Positions 6,853 through 15,982 of a stretch of 39,709 nucleotides of DNA are shown here, piece by piece. How positions within the stretch are numbered: the stretch's first letter is position 1; each line of letters begins with the position of its first letter. The DNA lies in sequence record PQ010280.1; one strand, given 5' to 3'. The position numbers and the translations under genes were made by a program. This DNA comes from Escherichia phage vB_EcoM_CQ615. The notes beneath the pieces were generated by a model. The model did no database searches and was not told where the DNA came from. It saw only the letters and a program-made list of their open reading frames with translations.

Positions 6853-7878
6853 ATGATGAACATTAAGACCAACCCATTCAAAGCCGTGTCTTTCATAGAG
6901 TCTGCCATTAAGAAAGCTCTGGATAACGCTGGGTATCTTATTGCTGACATTAAGTACGATGGTGTGCGTGGTAACATCTGCGTAGACAATACCGCTAACT
7001 GCTGCTGGCTCTCTCGTGTATCCAAACCGATTCCGGCACTGTCTTACCTTAATGGGTTCGACGCACGTTGGCAGCGTCTACTAAAGGATGACCGTTGCTT
7101 CTACCCTGATGGCTTCATGCTGGATTGCGAACTTATGGTCAAGGGAGTGGACTTCAACACTGGCTCCGGCCTTCTGCGGACCAAGTGGCTCAACAAGAAG
7201 AACATGCAGTTCGATATTGGAGGTCCGTATGAATCGTGGGACGTGAGCCTGAAGGGACTTCCTTTCGGTATTGACCCGAACTTACTAACAGTTAAACTCT
7301 ACGCTATCCTTCCGTACCACATTGTGGAATCTGGGGAAGACTGTGATGTCATGACGTTGCTCATGCAGGAACACGTTAAGAACATGCTGCCTCTGCTACA
7401 GGAATACTTTCCTGAAATCGAATGGCAAGCGGCTGAGTCTTACGAGGTTTACGACATGGTAGAACTACAGCAACTGTACGAGAAGAAGCGTGAAGAAGGG
7501 CATGAGGGTCTCATTGTGAAAGACCCGATGTGCATCTACAAGCGCGGTAAGAAGTCCGGCTGGTGGAAACTTAAGCCTCTTGAGGAAGCTGACGGTATCA
7601 TTCAAGGTGTAAACTGGGGAACCGAAGGGCTTGCTAACGAAGGTAAGGTAATTGGATTCAAGGTGCTTCTTGAGACTGGTCGTCTTGTGGATGCCAATAA
7701 CATCTCTCGCGCCTTAATGGATGAATTTACAGCTAACGTTAAAGAACATGGCGAGGACTATTATAATGGCTGGGCTTGCCAGATTGGATTTATGGAGGAA
7801 ACACCAGATGGCTCATTGCGTCACCCGTCCTTCACCTGCTTCCGAGGAACTGAGGACAATCCGAAAGAGAAAGTATAA
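6853..7878 (+). CDS. 1.3: ATP-dependent DNA ligase (gp1.3)
   Basis: 341 aa, MMNIKTNPFKAVSF..., adenylation motif KYDGVRG; T7 ligase-like but shorter (T7: 359 aa) with divergent internal patches. Confidence 0.93.
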   Translation: MMNIKTNPFKAVSFIESAIKKALDNAGYLIADIKYDGVRGNICVDNTANCCWLSRVSKPIPALSYLNGFDARWQRLLKDDRCFYPDGFMLDCELMVKGVDFNTGSGLLRTKWLNKKNMQFDIGGPYESWDVSLKGLPFGIDPNLLTVKLYAILPYHIVESGEDCDVMTLLMQEHVKNMLPLLQEYFPEIEWQAAESYEVYDMVELQQLYEKKREEGHEGLIVKDPMCIYKRGKKSGWWKLKPLEEADGIIQGVNWGTEGLANEGKVIGFKVLLETGRLVDANNISRALMDEFTANVKEHGEDYYNGWACQIGFMEETPDGSLRHPSFTCFRGTEDNPKEKV

Positions 7879-8278
7879 GTATAACCCTGCGGCTCCTTCG
7901 GGAGTCATTTCTGCCTCTGGTAAACCCATAGGGTACAAGCGGAAAGATGGGTATTGGGTTCTTTCTTATGGAGGAAAGCAGTTACTTGCACACAGGGTGG
8001 TCTGGATGCTTAACTTCGGTGCAATACCCGATGGAATGGTGATAGACCACATTAACAGAAACCCTAGCGACAACCGCATAGAGAATCTTCGAGTAGTAAC
8101 TCAATCAGCTAACCTAAGGAATGTAGGCGTCCGGTCTCACTGTAGGAGTGGAGAGAAGTTTATCTCCCTTGATGTGAGAACCGGACGTTTTTCCGTTCGT
8201 ATCAGGAGAAAATCCTATGGAACATATGGTACTCTCGAAGAGGCTATAGCTGTGCGCGATGCTAATACGACTCACTAA
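7808..8278 (+). CDS. HNH endonuclease with AP2-like DNA-binding tail (homing-endonuclease-like); start uncertain
   Basis: Open frame to TAA 8276-8278; HNH core GYWVLSYGGKQLLAHRVVWMLNFGAIPDGMVIDHINRNPSDNRIENLRVVTQSANLRN, then SVRIRRKSYGTYGTLEEAIAVRDAN; the only in-frame ATG before the HNH core with an SD (GGAGGA 7794-7799) is 7808, inside the ligase 3' end; no ATG/GTG/TTG lies between the ligase stop and the core. Confidence 0.55.
   Translation: MAHCVTRPSPASEELRTIRKRKYKYNPAAPSGVISASGKPIGYKRKDGYWVLSYGGKQLLAHRVVWMLNFGAIPDGMVIDHINRNPSDNRIENLRVVTQSANLRNVGVRSHCRSGEKFISLDVRTGRFSVRIRRKSYGTYGTLEEAIAVRDANTTH
7888..7912 (+). terminator. Weak hairpin after the ligase gene (possible early terminator TE analogue)
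   Basis: ggctcc-ttcg-ggagtc: 6-bp stem with one G-U pair and a UUCG tetraloop, followed by auuucu; position matches where T7 places TE. Confidence 0.3.
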
Positions 8279-8286
8279 AGGAGGTA
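8264..8286 (+). promoter_or_regulatory. Phage RNAP promoter phi1.5
   Basis: taatacgactcactaaaggaggt; overlaps the last codons and stop of the upstream HNH ORF. Confidence 0.8.
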
Positions 8287-8292
8287 CACATC

Positions 8293-8382
8293 ATGATGTA
8301 CTTAATGCCATTACTCATTGTCATCATAGGATGCCTTGCGCTCCACTGTAGCGATGACGATATGCCAGATGGTCATGCTTAA
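8293..8382 (+). CDS. 1.5: gp1.5-like small protein
   Basis: 29 aa, MMYLMPLLIVIIGCLALHCSDDDMPDGHA; stop overlaps phi1.6. Confidence 0.6.
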   Translation: MMYLMPLLIVIIGCLALHCSDDDMPDGHA

Positions 8383-8402
8383 TACGACTCACTAAAGGAG
8401 AC
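8380..8402 (+). promoter_or_regulatory. Phage RNAP promoter phi1.6
   Basis: taatacgactcactaaaggagac. Confidence 0.8.
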
Positions 8403-8407
8403 ACTAT

Positions 8408-8668
8408 ATGTTTCGACTTCATTACAACAAAAGCATTAAGAATTTCACGGTTCGCCGTGCTGACCGTTCAATCGTATGTGCGAGCGAGCGCCGAGCTAAG
8501 TTACCTCTTATTGGTAACACAGTTCCTTTGGCACCGAGCGTCCACATCATTATCACCCGTGGTGACTTTGAGAAAGCAGTAGATAAGAAACGTCCGGTTC
8601 TTAGCGTGGCAGTGACCCGCTTCCCGTTCGTCCGTCTGTTACTCAAACGTATCAAGGAGGTGTTCTAA
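8408..8668 (+). CDS. 1.6: gp1.6-like protein
   Basis: 86 aa, [23 protein letters not shown]...; SD aaaggagac upstream. Confidence 0.8.
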
Positions 8669-8995
8669 TGACTATTAACCATAAAGAATATTGTCGCTCC
8701 GTACTTAGCTTTGGGTCGTGCGATTGTGGTGCCACTACGAACCACGTGTCCAACAAACAACAAGACGTAGACGGTGTTCGTACTCCGAGCCATTACATGC
8801 TGTTTGACGACATTGAGGCTATTGAAGTGATTGCCCGTTCGATGACCAGTGAGCAGTTCAAAGGGTACTGCTTCGGGAACGTACTTAAATATCGCCTACG
8901 TGCTGGTAAGAAATCCGAACTGGCTTACTTAGAGAAGGACATGGCGAAAGCTGAGTTCTACGGTGAACTGTACGAGAAACATAAGGATAAGTGCT

Positions 8996-9009
<14 letters not shown>
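8668..9009 (+). CDS. 1.7: gp1.7-like protein (nucleotide kinase family in T7), short form
   Basis: 113 aa; C-terminal about 70 aa (TPSHYMLFDDIEAIEVIARSMT...KYRLRAGKKSELAYLEKD...KHKDKCY) match the T7 gp1.7 C-terminus; N-terminal 45 aa differ; T7 gp1.7 is 196 aa. Confidence 0.75.
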
Positions 9010-9329
<320 letters not shown>

Positions 9330-9332
<3 letters not shown>

Positions 9333-9352
9333 TACGACTCACTATTGGGGGA
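9330..9352 (+). promoter_or_regulatory. Phage RNAP promoter phi2.5
   Basis: taatacgactcactattggggga; variant initiating region. Confidence 0.75.
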
Positions 9353-9398
9353 AGACTCCCTCTGAGAAACTAAACGAAACCTAAAGGAGATTAACATT

Positions 9399-10097
9399 AT
9401 GGCTAAGAAGATTTTCACCTCTGCGCTGGGTACTGCTGAACCTTACGCTTACATCTCTAAGCCGGACTACGGCAACGAAGAGCGTGGCTTTGGGAACCCT
9501 CGCGGTGTCTACAAAGTTGACCTGACTATTCCCAACAAAGACCCGCGCTGCCAACGTATGGTCGATGAAATCGTGAAGTGCCACGAAGAGGCTTATGCTG
9601 CTGCCGTTGAGGAATACGAAGCGAACCCGCCTTCTGTAGCTCGTGGTAAGAAACCACTGAAACCGTATGAAGGCGACATGCCGTTCTTCGATAACGGTGA
9701 CGGTACGACTACCTTTAAGTTCAAATGCTACGCGTCTTTCCAAGACAAGAAGACCAAAGAGACCAAGCACATTAATCTGGTTGTGGTTGACTCCAAAGGT
9801 AAGAAGATGGAAGACGTTCCGATTATCGGTGGTGGCTCTAAACTGAAAGTAAAATACTCGCTGGTTCCGTACAAGTGGAACACCGCTGTAGGCGCGAGCG
9901 TTAAGCTACAACTGGAATCCGTAATGCTGGTCGAACTGGCTACCTTTGGTGGCGGTGAAGATGATTGGGCTGACGAAGTTGAAGAGAACGGCTATGTTGC
10001 CTCTGGTTCTGCCAAAGCGAGCAAACCACGCGACGAAGAAAGCTGGGACGAAGACGACGAAGAGTCCGAGGAAGTAGACGAAGACGGAGACTTCTAA
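9399..10097 (+). CDS. 2.5: Single-stranded DNA-binding protein (gp2.5)
   Basis: 232 aa, MAKKIFTSALGTAEPYAYISKPDYG..., acidic C-terminal tail ending DEDGDF. Confidence 0.95.
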   Translation: MAKKIFTSALGTAEPYAYISKPDYGNEERGFGNPRGVYKVDLTIPNKDPRCQRMVDEIVKCHEEAYAAAVEEYEANPPSVARGKKPLKPYEGDMPFFDNGDGTTTFKFKCYASFQDKKTKETKHINLVVVDSKGKKMEDVPIIGGGSKLKVKYSLVPYKWNTAVGASVKLQLESVMLVELATFGGGEDDWADEVEENGYVASGSAKASKPRDEESWDEDDEESEEVDEDGDF

Positions 10098-10553
10098 GTG
10101 GCTGGCGCATACGCTGCGCGTGGTATCAGAAAGGTCGGGACATTCCGTTCCGGCCTAGAAGATAAGGTCTCTAAGCAGCTAGAGGGTAAGGGTATTAAGT
10201 TCGATTATGAACTGTGGAAAATCCCTTACGTTGTCCCTGCGAGCAACCATGTGTATACTCCAGACTTCCTGCTGCCTAACGGAATCTTTATTGAAACCAA
10301 AGGTTTATGGGAGAGTGACGACCGAAAGAAACACTTATTGATTCGCGAACAGTTTCCTGAACTGGACATCCGTCTGGTGTTCTCAAGCTCACGCACCAAG
10401 CTATACAAAGGGTCTCCGACCAGTTACGGCGAATGGTGTGAGAAGCACGGTATTCTGTTTGCTGACAAATTAATTCCTGTAGAATGGCTCAAAGAACCCA
10501 AAAAGGAGGTGCCATTTGACAAGCTGAAACAATCGAAGGGAGGAAAGAAATAA
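10098..10553 (+). CDS. 3: Endonuclease I, Holliday-junction resolvase (gp3)
   Basis: 151 aa, GTG start right after the 2.5 stop; ...YTPDFLLPNGIFIETKGLWESDDRKKHLLIREQFPELDIRLVF... Confidence 0.93.
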   Translation: MAGAYAARGIRKVGTFRSGLEDKVSKQLEGKGIKFDYELWKIPYVVPASNHVYTPDFLLPNGIFIETKGLWESDDRKKHLLIREQFPELDIRLVFSSSRTKLYKGSPTSYGEWCEKHGILFADKLIPVEWLKEPKKEVPFDKLKQSKGGKK

Positions 10554-13367: not shown

Positions 13368-13408
13368 AGAGTGGTATACTCAAGGTCGCCCAAGTGGTGG
13401 CCTTCATT
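13366..13408 (+). promoter_or_regulatory. Putative RNase III site (R4.7-like)
   Basis: tactcaaggtcgcccaagtggtggccttcatt. Confidence 0.45.
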
Positions 13409-13412
13409 AATA

Positions 13413-13435
13413 CTATTCGACTCACTATAGGAGAT
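13413..13435 (+). promoter_or_regulatory. Phage RNAP promoter phi4.7
   Basis: ctattcgactcactataggagat. Confidence 0.7.
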
Positions 13436-13441
13436 ATTACC

Positions 13442-13849
13442 ATGCGTGACCCTAAAGTTATCCAAGCAGAAATCGCTAAGTTGGAAGCTGAACTGGAGGA
13501 TGTTAAGTACCATGAAGCTAAGACTCGCTCCGCTGTTCATATCTTGAAGAACTTAGGTTGGACTTGGACAAGACAGACTGGCTGGAAGAAACCAGAAGTT
13601 ACCAAGCTGAGCCACAAGGTGTTCGATAAGGACACTATGACCCACATCAAGGCTGGTGATTGGGTTAAGGTTGACATGGGAGTTGTTGGTGGGTACGGCT
13701 ATGTCCGCTCAGTGAGTGGTAAATACGCACAAGTGTCATACATCACTGGCGTTACTCCGCGAGGAGCAATCGTTGCCGACAAGACCAACATGATTCACAC
13801 AGGCTTCTTGACGGTTGTATCGTATGAAGAGATTGTTAAGTCACGATAA
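13442..13849 (+). CDS. 4.7: gp4.7-like protein
   Basis: 135 aa from ATG 13442 (the track ORF extends upstream); MRDPKVIQAEIAKLEAELEDVKYHEAKTRSAV... Confidence 0.8.
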   Translation: MRDPKVIQAEIAKLEAELEDVKYHEAKTRSAVHILKNLGWTWTRQTGWKKPEVTKLSHKVFDKDTMTHIKAGDWVKVDMGVVGGYGYVRSVSGKYAQVSYITGVTPRGAIVADKTNMIHTGFLTVVSYEEIVKSR

Positions 13850-13867: not shown

Positions 13868-15982
13868 ATGATCGTTTCTGACATCGAAGCTAACGCCCTC
13901 TTAGAGAGCGTCACTAAGTTCCACTGCGGGGTTATCTACGACTACTCCACCGCTGAGTACGTAAGCTACCGTCCGAGTGACTTCGGTGCGTATCTGGATG
14001 CGCTGGAAGCCGAGGTTGCACGAGGCGGTCTTATTGTGTTCCACAACGGTCACAAGTATGACGTTCCCGCATTGACCAAACTGGCAAAGCTACAATTGAA
14101 CCGAGAGTTCCACCTTCCTCGTGAGAACTGTATCGACACCCTTGTGCTGTCACGCTTGATTCACTCTAACCTAAAGGACACCGATATGGGTCTTCTTCGT
14201 TCCGGTAAACTGCCGGGGAAACGATTTGGGTCTCACGCTTTGGAGGCGTGGGGCTATCGCTTAGGTGAAATGAAGGGTGAATACAAAGATGACTTTAAGC
14301 GTATGCTTGAAGAGCAGGGTGAAGAATACATCGACGGAATGGAATGGTGGAACTTCAACGAAGAGATGATGGACTATAACGTTCAGGACGTTGTGGTCAC
14401 TAAGGCTCTCCTTGAGAAGCTACTCTCTGACAAACATTACTTCCCTCCTGAGATTGACTTTACGGACGTAGGTTACACTACGTTCTGGTCAGAATCCCTT
14501 GAGGCCGTTGATGTTGAACATCGCGCTGCATGGCTACTCGCTAAGCAAGAGCGCAATGGATTCCCGTTTGACACAAAAGCAATCGAAGAGTTGTACGTAG
14601 AGTTAGCTGCTAGACGCTCTGAGTTGCTACGTAAATTGACCGAAACGTTTGGCTCGTGGTATCAACCTAAAGGTGGCACCGAAATGTTCTGCCATCCACG
14701 AACAGGTAAGCCGCTGCCTAAATACCCTCGCATTAAGACACCTAAAGTTGGTGGCATCTTTAAGAAGCCTAAGAACAAGGCACAGCGAGAAGGCCGTGAG
14801 CCTTGCGAACTGGATACCCGCGAGTACGTTGCTGGTGCTCCGTATACTCCAGTAGAGCACGTAGTGTTTAACCCTTCGTCTCGTGACCACATCCAGAAGA
14901 AACTCCAAGAGGCAGGATGGGTCCCCACGAAGTACACCGATAAGGGTGCGCCTGTGGTGGACGATGAGGTACTCGAAGGAGTACGTGTAGATGACCCTGA
15001 GAAGCAAGCTGCTATCGACCTCATTAAAGAGTACCTGATGATTCAGAAGCGAATCGGACAGTCTGCTGAGGGAGACAAGGCGTGGCTTCGTTACGTTGCT
15101 GAGGATGGTAAAATTCATGGTTCTGTTAATCCCAACGGCGCTGTTACTGGGCGCGCTACTCACGCTTTCCCTAACCTCGCACAGATACCCGGTGTCCGTT
15201 CTCCTTATGGTGATAAGTGCCGCGCTGCTTTTGGCGCTGAACATCACCTAGACGGTATTACTGGTAAGCCTTGGGTTCAGGCAGGCATCGACGCATCCGG
15301 CCTTGAGTTGCGCTGCTTGGCCCACTTCATGGCTCGCTTTGATAACGGTGAGTACGCTCACGAGATTCTTAACGGTGACATCCACACTAAGAACCAGATG
15401 GCTGCCGAATTGCCTACCCGAGATAACGCTAAGACGTTCATCTATGGGTTCCTTTATGGTGCTGGTGATGAGAAGATTGGACAGATTGTCGGTGCTGGTA
15501 AAGAGCGCGGTAAGGAACTCAAGAAGAAATTCCTTGAGAACACCCCAGCGATTGCCGCACTCCGAGAGTCTATCCAACAAACACTTGTTGAGTCCTCTCA
15601 GTGGGTAGCTGGTGAACAGCAAGTCAAGTGGAAACGTCGGTGGATTAAAGGTCTGGATGGTCGTAAGGTACACGTTCGTAGTCCTCACGCTGCGCTTAAC
15701 ACCCTTCTACAATCTGCTGGTGCGCTTATCTGCAAACTGTGGATTATCAAGACCGAAGAGATGCTCGTAGAGAAAGGCTTGAAGCATGGCTGGGATGGGG
15801 ACTTTGCGTACATGGCATGGGTACATGACGAAATCCAAGTAGGTTGTCGTACCGAAGAGATTGCCCAGGTGGTCATTGAGACCGCACAGGAAGCGATGCG
15901 CTGGGTAGGGGACCACTGGAACTTCCGGTGCCTTCTTGATACCGAAGGTAAGATGGGTCCTAATTGGGCCGTATGTCACTAA
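13868..15982 (+). CDS. 5: DNA polymerase with 3'-5' exonuclease and thioredoxin-binding loop (gp5)
   Basis: 704 aa, [26 protein letters not shown]..., family A pol motifs; T7 gp5 length and sequence. Confidence 0.98.

What the first reader, a model, noticed from the sequence alone, without database searches (positions are those of the whole stretch)
8668..9009. Short gp1.7 variant: conserved C-terminal module with a different, shorter N-terminus
Only the C-terminal about 70 residues match T7 gp1.7 (TPSHYMLFDDIEAIEVIARSMT..EQFKGYCFGN.LKYRLRAGKKSELAYLEKD); the N-terminal 45 residues are unrelated and the protein is 113 aa against 196 in T7. If the nucleotide kinase activity needs the missing region, dideoxynucleoside sensitivity and nucleotide metabolism would differ from T7.
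Basis: partly seen in the sequence, partly recalled or inferred. Interest (0 to 1): 0.35.

Follow-up and report, generated by a model that had tools for sequence, protein, structure and literature searches.

The report
Ordinary short-form T7 gp1.7 nucleotide kinase
This is an intact, ordinary short version of the phage T7 gene 1.7 nucleotide kinase: the conserved C-terminal domain is complete, and the small cysteine-rich N-terminal piece is one of many interchangeable pieces seen on this protein in related phages.

Summary
ORF 8668-9009 (+) encodes 113 aa. Residues 32-110 match T7 gp1.7 residues 117-195 at 85% identity, and the first 31 residues show no detectable similarity to T7's N-terminal 116 residues by BLASTP or hhalign.

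The shortness is not unusual.
- Among the 120 closest 90%-identity clusters, lengths run 98-197 aa and 50 are 125 aa or shorter.
- Among 150 representatives at 50% identity, the extension before the core runs 4-269 aa.
- Short forms are already annotated in phages Berlin (104 aa), BA14 (123 aa) and SWJM-03 (116 aa), and CR44b's entry reads "lacks the N-terminal region".

The window is a Teseptimavirus (about 94% identical to phage C5). A 116-bp stretch (8675-8790) replaces the T7/C5 N-terminal coding DNA with a module also found in Berlinvirus, Kayfunavirus and Przondovirus. That module has an invariant H-x3-C-x8-C-x-C motif.

The DUF3310 core keeps every family-invariant residue and has dN/dS 0.05-0.10. 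It folds confidently as a helical hairpin domain with no solved analogue.

Most likely this is a working dTMP/dGMP kinase. Activity of a short form has not been shown directly. Low novelty.

The parts
8380..8402 (+). T7-type class II promoter phi1.6 (TAATACGACTCACTAAAGGAGAC). It drives genes 1.6-1.7-1.8-2. A second copy, phi1.5, lies at 8263-8285.
   Evidence: Sequence read. blastn matches to the T7 phi1.5/phi1.6 positions. T7 annotation.
8408..8668 (+). Gene 1.6 (86 aa, BC10 family). Its TAA stop overlaps the ATG of gene 1.7.
   Evidence: ORF. (Pfam BC10, 7.2e-23). 97-98% nucleotide identity to T7/C5.
8654..8661 (+). Shine-Dalgarno sequence AAGGAGGT, six nt upstream of the gene 1.7 ATG.
   Evidence: Sequence.
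8668..9009 (+). Gene 1.7, short form: 113 aa, 13.06 kDa, pI 6.4. DUF3310 / gp1.7-family nucleotide kinase.
8675..8790 (+). Swapped DNA segment encoding the N-terminal module. It has no nucleotide similarity to T7 or to the closest backbone relative C5. It is 89% identical to a metagenomic T7-like contig (L006) and about 80% identical to Berlinvirus JSS2.
   Evidence: blastn breakpoints: T7/C5 similarity stops at 8670-8674 and resumes at 8790-8791.
8680..8727 (+). H5-x3-C9-x8-C18-x-C20 motif of the N-terminal module, a putative metal (zinc) knuckle. The metal-binding role is inferred, not shown.
   Evidence: H5, C9, C18 and C20 are the only invariant columns in 12 module sequences of 28-77% identity. 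The motif is intact in all 32 occurrences among 269 homologues, including divergent ones. AlphaFold confidence here is low.
8761..8997 (+). Conserved core, residues 32-110, which equals T7 gp1.7 residues 117-195. The Pfam DUF3310 match covers residues 37-98 (nt 8776-8961). Predicted elements: short strands/helix at 35-57, then helices 61-81 and 85-108, with the invariant R78-x-G80-K81-K82-S83 at the hairpin turn.
8996..9136 (+). Gene 1.8 (46 aa from ATG 8996). It overlaps the last 14 nt of gene 1.7, as in T7.
   Evidence: ORF frame. Sequence. T7 layout.
15443..15445 (+). Codon for Tyr526 of the gene 5 DNA polymerase (gene 13868..15982, 704 aa). This is the residue that lets T7 DNA polymerase accept dideoxynucleotides.
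   Evidence: Motif [14 protein letters not shown] found at nt 15419. ORF. The role of Y526 is from established knowledge (Tabor & Richardson 1995), not tested here.

Best explanation
Gene 8668-9009 is a functional short allele of T7 gene 1.7. It is transcribed from the phage promoters phi1.5/phi1.6 and translated from a strong ribosome-binding site in translational coupling with gene 1.6.

The product has two parts.
1. A complete C-terminal DUF3310 core (residues about 32-110). In T7 gp1.7 this domain is associated with the metal-independent phosphorylation of dTMP and dGMP to the diphosphates. That activity feeds nucleotides salvaged from degraded host DNA into phage replication.
2. A 31-residue N-terminal module with an invariant His-Cys3 motif. 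It was acquired by recombination between the conserved gene start and the conserved start of the core.

The N-terminal region of this family is a swappable accessory, not part of the catalytic unit. I therefore expect the protein to retain dTMP/dGMP kinase activity. Because the DNA polymerase keeps Tyr526, I expect the phage to remain dideoxythymidine-sensitive.

Shown here: gene integrity, homology, conservation, selection, the module swap and the length distribution. Inferred: kinase activity, metal binding by the HCCC motif, and an active site built by oligomerisation around the basic hairpin tip (R78, K81, K82, K74, K94).
For: - Pfam DUF3310 at 79 bits against a cut-off of 24. PHROG 2585 'nucleotide kinase' at 2.5e-54.
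- 85% identity to T7 gp1.7 over the core.
- All family-invariant residues in an alignment of 71 diverse relatives are present: Y43, G66, G70, N71, K74, Y75, R78, K82, K94.
- dN/dS is 0.05-0.10 for the core and 0.23-0.38 for the N-terminal module.
- Synteny, ribosome-binding site and promoters are identical to T7.
- The core is predicted confidently (pLDDT 86-98) and independently of the N-terminus.
- Lengths are 98-197 aa among the 120 closest clusters, with 50 at 125 aa or less. N-termini are mosaics of at least eight short modules, and some proteins have none.
- 2394 clusters match family-wide. The core is C-terminal in 134 of 150 representatives, and the N-extension runs 4-269 aa.
- Short forms are annotated as nucleotide kinase in RefSeq phages.
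- T7 has an SD-like AAAGGAG seven nt before the Met42 ATG. Computed masses are 22,184 and 17,711 Da, consistent with the two active forms I recall from Tran et al. 2010.
- Four mycobacteriophage proteins of different length, sharing only the C-terminal DUF3310, are all highly toxic on overexpression (PMC11797047).
- DNA polymerase Y526 is retained.
Against: - No natural short form has, to my knowledge, been assayed for kinase activity.
- The key T7 truncation and isoform data rest on my memory of papers I could not open.
- The catalytic residues and the structure of the family are unknown. There is no PDB relative by sequence or by fold.
- 'Core intact' is therefore judged from conservation only.
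- The N-terminal module is itself under purifying selection with invariant H/C positions. It does something, and could modulate activity, oligomeric state or partners.
Confidence: 0.75

Rival explanations
1. The region of T7 gp1.7 that is missing here contributes to kinase activity, substrate choice or the roughly 12-mer assembly. The short protein would then be inactive or kinetically different, and ddT sensitivity and dNTP supply would differ from T7.
For: The window protein lacks any counterpart of T7 residues 1-116. No short form has been assayed. Monomer models give no active site, so an oligomer is probably needed, and N-terminal parts could influence it.
Against: The T7-type N-terminal region is absent or replaced in a large share of relatives, including 98-aa and 82-aa proteins. 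The core stays invariant and under strong purifying selection. From memory, the T7 form starting at Met42 and the C-terminal half of T7 gp1.7 retain function.
Confidence: 0.12
2. The main role of the protein is not nucleotide phosphorylation but an interaction with host factors, either takeover or toxicity, or the defence interface. Examples for DUF3310 proteins are lactococcal SaV and the activation of Avs5 by T7 gp1.7. On this view the interchangeable Cys-rich N-terminal modules set the partner, or help evade sensors.
For: - DUF3310 proteins SaV and several mycobacteriophage proteins are toxic to their hosts, and SaV determines AbiV sensitivity (PMC8306868; PMC11373665; PMC11797047).
- T7 gp1.7 activates EfAvs5 (PMC11897194).
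- Gene 1.7 is mutated in T7 escapers of retron Ec48 (bioRxiv 10.1101/2020.06.21.156273).
- The N-terminus shows extreme modular variability with conserved metal-ligand-like residues.
Against: The core is 85% identical to an enzyme with reported kinase activity. No evidence links any N-terminal module to a partner or to immune evasion. In the retron study gp1.7 expression did not trigger the system. This reading is compatible with, rather than exclusive of, kinase activity.
Confidence: 0.1
3. The short gene is a decaying remnant (pseudogene) of a longer gene 1.7 after a deletion.
For: Gene 1.7 is dispensable in the laboratory (PMC9712115). One database entry, CR44b, flags its short form as a pseudogene 'lacking the N-terminal region'.
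Against: - The frame is intact, with a strong SD and T7-like coupling.
- dN/dS is well below 1 in both parts.
- The N-terminus is a conserved module shared across four genera, not a deletion scar.
- An identical protein and 86-89% identical relatives exist in other assemblies.
Confidence: 0.03

Closest known systems
Bacteriophage T7 gp1.7 (NP_041967, 196 aa), dTMP/dGMP kinase
   Same: Same genomic slot between genes 1.6 and 1.8, with the same promoters and translational coupling. The core is 85% identical over 79 residues. All family-invariant residues are shared.
   Different: The window protein lacks T7 residues 1-116: the leader, the CxxC...HxC module, the helix plus Cx4Cx4CxxC module, and the linker. 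It carries an unrelated 31-residue HCCC module instead. It ends ...CYDAW rather than ...CYA.
Short gp1.7 of Berlinvirus Salmonella phages (SWJM-03, JSS2, LPST144, DS_BP2; 116 aa)
   Same: Same two-part architecture (HCCC module plus core). 77-80% identity over the full length. Same gene order.
   Different: The genus backbone differs: Berlinvirus against Teseptimavirus here. Their linker between the motif and the core is 5 residues longer.
Metagenomic T7-like contigs with 112-113-aa gp1.7 (P0001 100%, P0002-P0004 86-89%; locus L006)
   Same: Same allele on a T7-like genome. 89% nucleotide identity across 8300-9400.
   Different: They are unnamed assemblies. L006 carries an HNH gene between 2.5 and 3 that the window lacks.
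Other natural length variants: Yersinia phage Berlin (104 aa), BA14 (123 aa), C5/K1F type (155 aa), T3 (163 aa), and 98-aa forms with no Cys module
   Same: Same conserved C-terminal core and same locus.
   Different: They carry different N-terminal modules or none. The 155-aa type corresponds to T7 from its internal Met42.
Lactococcal phage SaV and mycobacteriophage DUF3310 proteins
   Same: They share the DUF3310 domain, usually at the C-terminus, with variable N-termini.
   Different: They are distant in sequence. They are known for host toxicity or AbiV sensitivity, not for demonstrated kinase activity. They were not compared directly here.

Membership tests
T7 gp1.7 / DUF3310 (PF11753) family | Significant match to the DUF3310 profile above Pfam's gathering score | tested here: met
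   79 bits against a cut-off of 24, E = 2.6e-22, residues 37-98 covering profile positions 1-58 of 60. PHROG 2585 'nucleotide kinase' at 2.5e-54.
T7 gp1.7 / DUF3310 (PF11753) family | Presence of the residues that are invariant across diverse family members | tested here: met
   Y43, G66, G70, N71, K74, Y75, R78, K82 and K94 are invariant in 71 sequences and all present. The nearly invariant V37, P40, H42, E50, I52, I55, A56, C68, R76, G80, Y98 and L101 are also present.
T7 gp1.7 / DUF3310 (PF11753) family | Position in the Studiervirinae class II gene block (1.6 - 1.7 - 1.8 - 2 - 2.5), downstream of phi1.5/phi1.6 | tested here: met
T7 gp1.7 / DUF3310 (PF11753) family | T7-type N-terminal region (T7 residues 1-116) | tested here: not met
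   No BLASTP or hhalign similarity. This feature does not define the family. It is absent or replaced in a large fraction of members.
T7 gp1.7 / DUF3310 (PF11753) family | Metal-independent phosphorylation of dTMP and dGMP using dTTP/dGTP/GTP as donors; high-order oligomer | not testable with these tools
   Biochemical properties reported for T7 gp1.7 (Tran et al. 2010, 2012, as cited in PMC7693777 and PMC11897194). They require an enzyme assay and sizing of the recombinant 113-aa protein.
Classical P-loop nucleoside-monophosphate kinases (Tmk, Gmk, Adk) | P-loop NTPase fold and Walker A motif GxxxxGK[ST] | tested here: not met
Zinc-knuckle / zinc-ribbon modules (for the N-terminal 31 residues) | Four conserved metal ligands with fixed spacing | tested here: inconclusive
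   H-x3-C-x8-C-x-C is invariant in every occurrence. No Pfam zinc-domain match was found. The structure model has low confidence there. Metal content needs measurement.

The most novel reading that the evidence does not exclude
The N-terminus of gp1.7 in T7-like phages may be a recombination cassette. Small metal-binding (His/Cys) modules would be exchanged between genera at two conserved junctions, the gene start and the '(D/E)GV(R/T)xPSHY' start of the core. The driver would be selection from host factors or immune sensors that recognise gp1.7, such as Avs5. The window would carry one allele (HCCC) newly combined with a Teseptimavirus backbone. The module would tune partner binding, oligomerisation or sensor evasion rather than catalysis.
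Probability: 0.15. Interest if true: 0.5.

Novelty: already known. Interest (0 to 1): 0.13.

Why it matters
It matters little for this genome. The gene is an ordinary, intact member of the gp1.7/DUF3310 family. Its shortness reflects the family's normal N-terminal variability, so there is no reason to expect unusual nucleotide metabolism or ddT resistance.

There are two modestly useful by-products.
- Natural 98-125-aa forms point to roughly 80 C-terminal residues as the minimal conserved unit of this unusual, structurally uncharacterised, reportedly metal-independent kinase. That makes them attractive targets for structure determination.
- The mosaic of Cys/His modules at the N-terminus is a tidy example of domain shuffling. 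It could be examined in the light of recent reports that gp1.7 is sensed by the defence protein Avs5.

Tried and rejected
- **Primary T7 gp1.7 papers.** I could not read Tran et al. 2008, 2010, 2012 or 2014. PubMed ids, PMC ids and the DOI were all not held, and full-text searches did not surface their content. Statements about the two T7 isoforms and the sufficiency of the C-terminal half are therefore from memory. The only cross-check is the computed masses and the internal SD in T7. The short-form mass I recall, 17,782 Da, differs by 71 Da from the computed 17,711 Da.
- **Solved structures.** Sequence searches with the protein and with a 71-sequence profile found nothing.
- **NCBIfam.** No meaningful hit.
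- **MAFFT's N-terminal alignment.** MAFFT placed the window's cysteines against T7's Cx4Cx4CxxC cluster, which suggested a possible relationship. The profile-profile test rejected it.
- **Local signals.** The sigma-70 promoter and terminator scan of 7800-9500 found nothing relevant.
- **Pseudogene reading.** Rejected on dN/dS and module conservation.

Full report
**What is in the window**

The 39,709-bp window is a complete T7-like phage genome. Its first 25 kb are 93.8% identical, over 93% of their length, to Escherichia phage C5 and N30 of genus Teseptimavirus. It carries T7-consensus promoters throughout.

The finding sits in the class II gene block. Ligase is at 6853-7878, followed by an HNH_3 endonuclease ORF at 7721-8278. 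Then come promoter phi1.5 (8263-8285), a small gene 1.5, and promoter phi1.6 (8380-8402). After these are gene 1.6 (8408-8668, BC10 family), the ORF in question (8668-9009), gene 1.8 (from 8996), gene 2 and gene 2.5.

**Observation check**

The ORF is exactly as described: 113 aa with an ATG at 8668. A strong AAGGAGGT lies six nt upstream, and the ATG overlaps the stop codon of gene 1.6, as in T7.

BLASTP against T7 gp1.7 (196 aa) aligns residues 32-110 with T7 117-195 at 85% identity (E = 2e-50) and nothing else. The conserved block is about 79 residues and the unmatched N-terminus is 31 residues.

MAFFT placed the N-terminal cysteines against a T7 cysteine cluster. A profile-profile test of 12 module sequences against 10 T7-type N-terminal regions found no relationship (probability 0.08%). 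'Unrelated to T7's N-terminus' therefore stands.

**Family assignment**

The protein matches Pfam DUF3310 (79 bits, cut-off 24, residues 37-98) and PHROG 2585 'nucleotide kinase' (2.5e-54). An alignment with 70 diverse relatives gives the invariant columns Y43, G66, G70, N71, K74, Y75, R78, K82 and K94, plus a dozen nearly invariant ones. All are present here.

**Is the short length unusual?**

No.
- The 120 closest clusters (90% identity) from a 5.8-billion-protein collection range from 98 to 197 aa: 50 are 98-125 aa, 35 are 140-167 aa, and 35 are 174-197 aa.
- One cluster is 100% identical to the window protein, and three 112-aa clusters are 86-89% identical.
- An exhaustive HMMER scan of 1.84 billion cluster representatives found 2394 relatives at E <= 0.001.
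- In the best 150 of these, the match is always to the core. The core is C-terminal in 134. The extension before it runs from 4 to 269 aa (median 78), and 34 proteins are 125 aa or shorter.
- Public phage records already annotate short forms. Yersinia phage Berlin has 104 aa, noted as 'similar to T7p14 at C-terminus'. BA14 has 123 aa. Salmonella phages JSS2 and SWJM-03 have 116 aa, 77-80% identical over the full length. CR44b is noted as 'lacks the N-terminal region'. T3 has 163 aa and C5 has 155 aa.

**The N-terminus is modular**

Listing the residues before the core for the 120 close relatives shows a mosaic of short modules:
- the leader MGLLDGEAWEKENPP;
- CIACLEKDDRYPHTC;
- a helix plus Cx4Cx4CxxC;
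- the ITLGEIRAMDPRKP... linker;
- HSGESMCNCERDYDTRDGHALDC;
- SRNYKRCDSTTYCEACNGDDRFPH;
- HYCxxC...DCTC;
- the window's NHKEYCRSVLSFGSCDCGA.

These occur singly, in combinations, or not at all. The 98-aa proteins consist of leader plus core.

The window's module has H5, C9, C18 and C20 as its only invariant positions across 12 sequences of 28-77% identity. The H-x3-C-x8-C-x-C pattern is intact in all 32 occurrences among 269 homologues, and one protein carries it twice. I infer a small metal-binding knuckle, but this is not shown. Pfam recognises no zinc domain and AlphaFold is unconfident there.

The module occurs in Berlinvirus, Kayfunavirus, Przondovirus and Escherichia, Salmonella, Klebsiella and Citrobacter phages. 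There are 51 records, all at most 66% identical to the window's version.

**Origin of the allele**

At the DNA level the window is 97-98% identical to T7 and C5 up to 8670-8674, and 81-92% identical again from 8790-8791. The 116 bp in between have no counterpart in T7 or C5. They match a metagenomic T7-like contig (L006, 89% over 8300-9400) and Berlinvirus JSS2 (about 80%).

The breakpoints coincide with the gene start and the start of the core. This is a clean module replacement, not a deletion scar.

**Is it functional?**

Nei-Gojobori estimates against L006, JSS2, BA14 and CR44b give dN/dS of 0.05-0.10 for the core and 0.23-0.38 for the N-terminal part. The N-terminal counts are small.

With a diverse alignment, AlphaFold2 models residues about 40-110 at pLDDT 86-98: a short beta/helix element followed by helices 61-81 and 85-108. 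The invariant R78-x-G80-K81-K82-S83 lies at the hairpin turn. Residues 1-33 stay near pLDDT 50. A shallower alignment gave the same helices.

A roughly 70-residue hairpin can hardly form a nucleotide site alone. I infer that the site is formed in an oligomer and lined by the conserved basic residues.

**What is known about T7 gp1.7**

- It phosphorylates dTMP and dGMP independently of divalent cations (as cited in PMC7693777 and PMC11897194).
- It is non-essential in the laboratory (PMC9712115).
- It activates the defence protein EfAvs5 (PMC11897194).
- It was found mutated in T7 escapers of retron Ec48, without itself triggering the system.
- From memory of Tran et al. 2010 (Mol Microbiol 77:492, which I could not open): the protein occurs as forms of about 22.2 and about 17.8 kDa with the same kinase activity, and the C-terminal half suffices for dideoxythymidine sensitivity.
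- Consistent with that, T7 has AAAGGAG seven nt before the Met42 ATG. The computed masses are 22,184 and 17,711 Da. Many relatives, including C5 and K1F at 155 aa, begin at the equivalent position.
- Four mycobacteriophage proteins that share only a C-terminal DUF3310 are all highly toxic on overexpression (PMC11797047). This again places the function in the core.

The other determinant of dideoxynucleotide sensitivity is Tyr526 of the phage DNA polymerase. It is conserved here ([14 protein letters not shown], gene 13868-15982). If the short gp1.7 is active, as I expect, the phage should behave like T7.

**Verdict**

This is an ordinary, intact, short-form gp1.7/DUF3310 nucleotide kinase gene with a recombinationally swapped HCCC N-terminal module. 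The suggestion of functional loss is unlikely but not experimentally excluded.

Novelty is low. The kind, the short architecture and even the identical protein are already in public data.

The only mildly interesting residue is the family-wide shuffling of Cys/His modules at the N-terminus, whose purpose is unknown. Its possible link to immune sensing of gp1.7 is speculative (probability about 0.15).

**Caveats**

- Length statistics count cluster representatives, not phages.
- Some metagenomic start codons may be miscalled. However, the short forms examined at the DNA level (window, L006, JSS2, BA14, Berlin) all start at the gene 1.6 stop.

Noticed in passing
window 7721-8278 (+): An HNH_3 homing-endonuclease-like ORF (Pfam 1.6e-20) lies between the ligase gene and promoter phi1.5. 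T7 has the early terminator TE and gene 1.4 in this position. Counted from its first ATG, the ORF overlaps the ligase 3' end by 158 nt. Its last codons and stop lie inside the phi1.5 promoter (…GCTAATACGACTCACTAA). The terminator scan found no TE-like site in 7800-9500.
   Followed up: partly
window 10097-10098; compare T7 (L004 3858-4277) and L006 4411-4878: The window has no HNH gene (T7 gene 2.8) between gene 2.5 and gene 3. Gene 3 (GTG 10098) starts directly after the gene 2.5 stop. T7 and the metagenomic relative L006 each carry an HNH ORF there. Homing-endonuclease content therefore differs between otherwise close genomes.
   Followed up: no
window 13394-13849 (+): A 151-aa ORF (GTG start) immediately upstream of the DNA polymerase gene has no Pfam match at E <= 0.01. 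It was not examined further.
   Followed up: no
homologues P0058, P0125, P0007, P0042: Some gp1.7 relatives carry duplicated or concatenated N-terminal modules. P0058 has one module plus a second '...QDKEGV' junction, followed by leader, CxxC module and core. P0125 has two HCCC motifs. This looks like the product of repeated recombination at the junction sequence that precedes the core.
   Followed up: partly
T7 record, L004 2260-2295 (T7 8259-8294): T7 gene 1.7 contains an internal Shine-Dalgarno-like AAAGGAG seven nt before the Met42 ATG. The 155-aa product would equal the full-length gp1.7 of C5/K1F-type phages, so T7 may naturally make both the long and the intermediate architecture from one gene.
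   Followed up: partly
window 8990-9009: The C-terminus of gp1.7 is ...CYDAW instead of T7's ...CYA. This stretch holds the tandem ATGATG start of the overlapping gene 1.8, so the two extra residues probably reflect constraints of the overlap.
   Followed up: no
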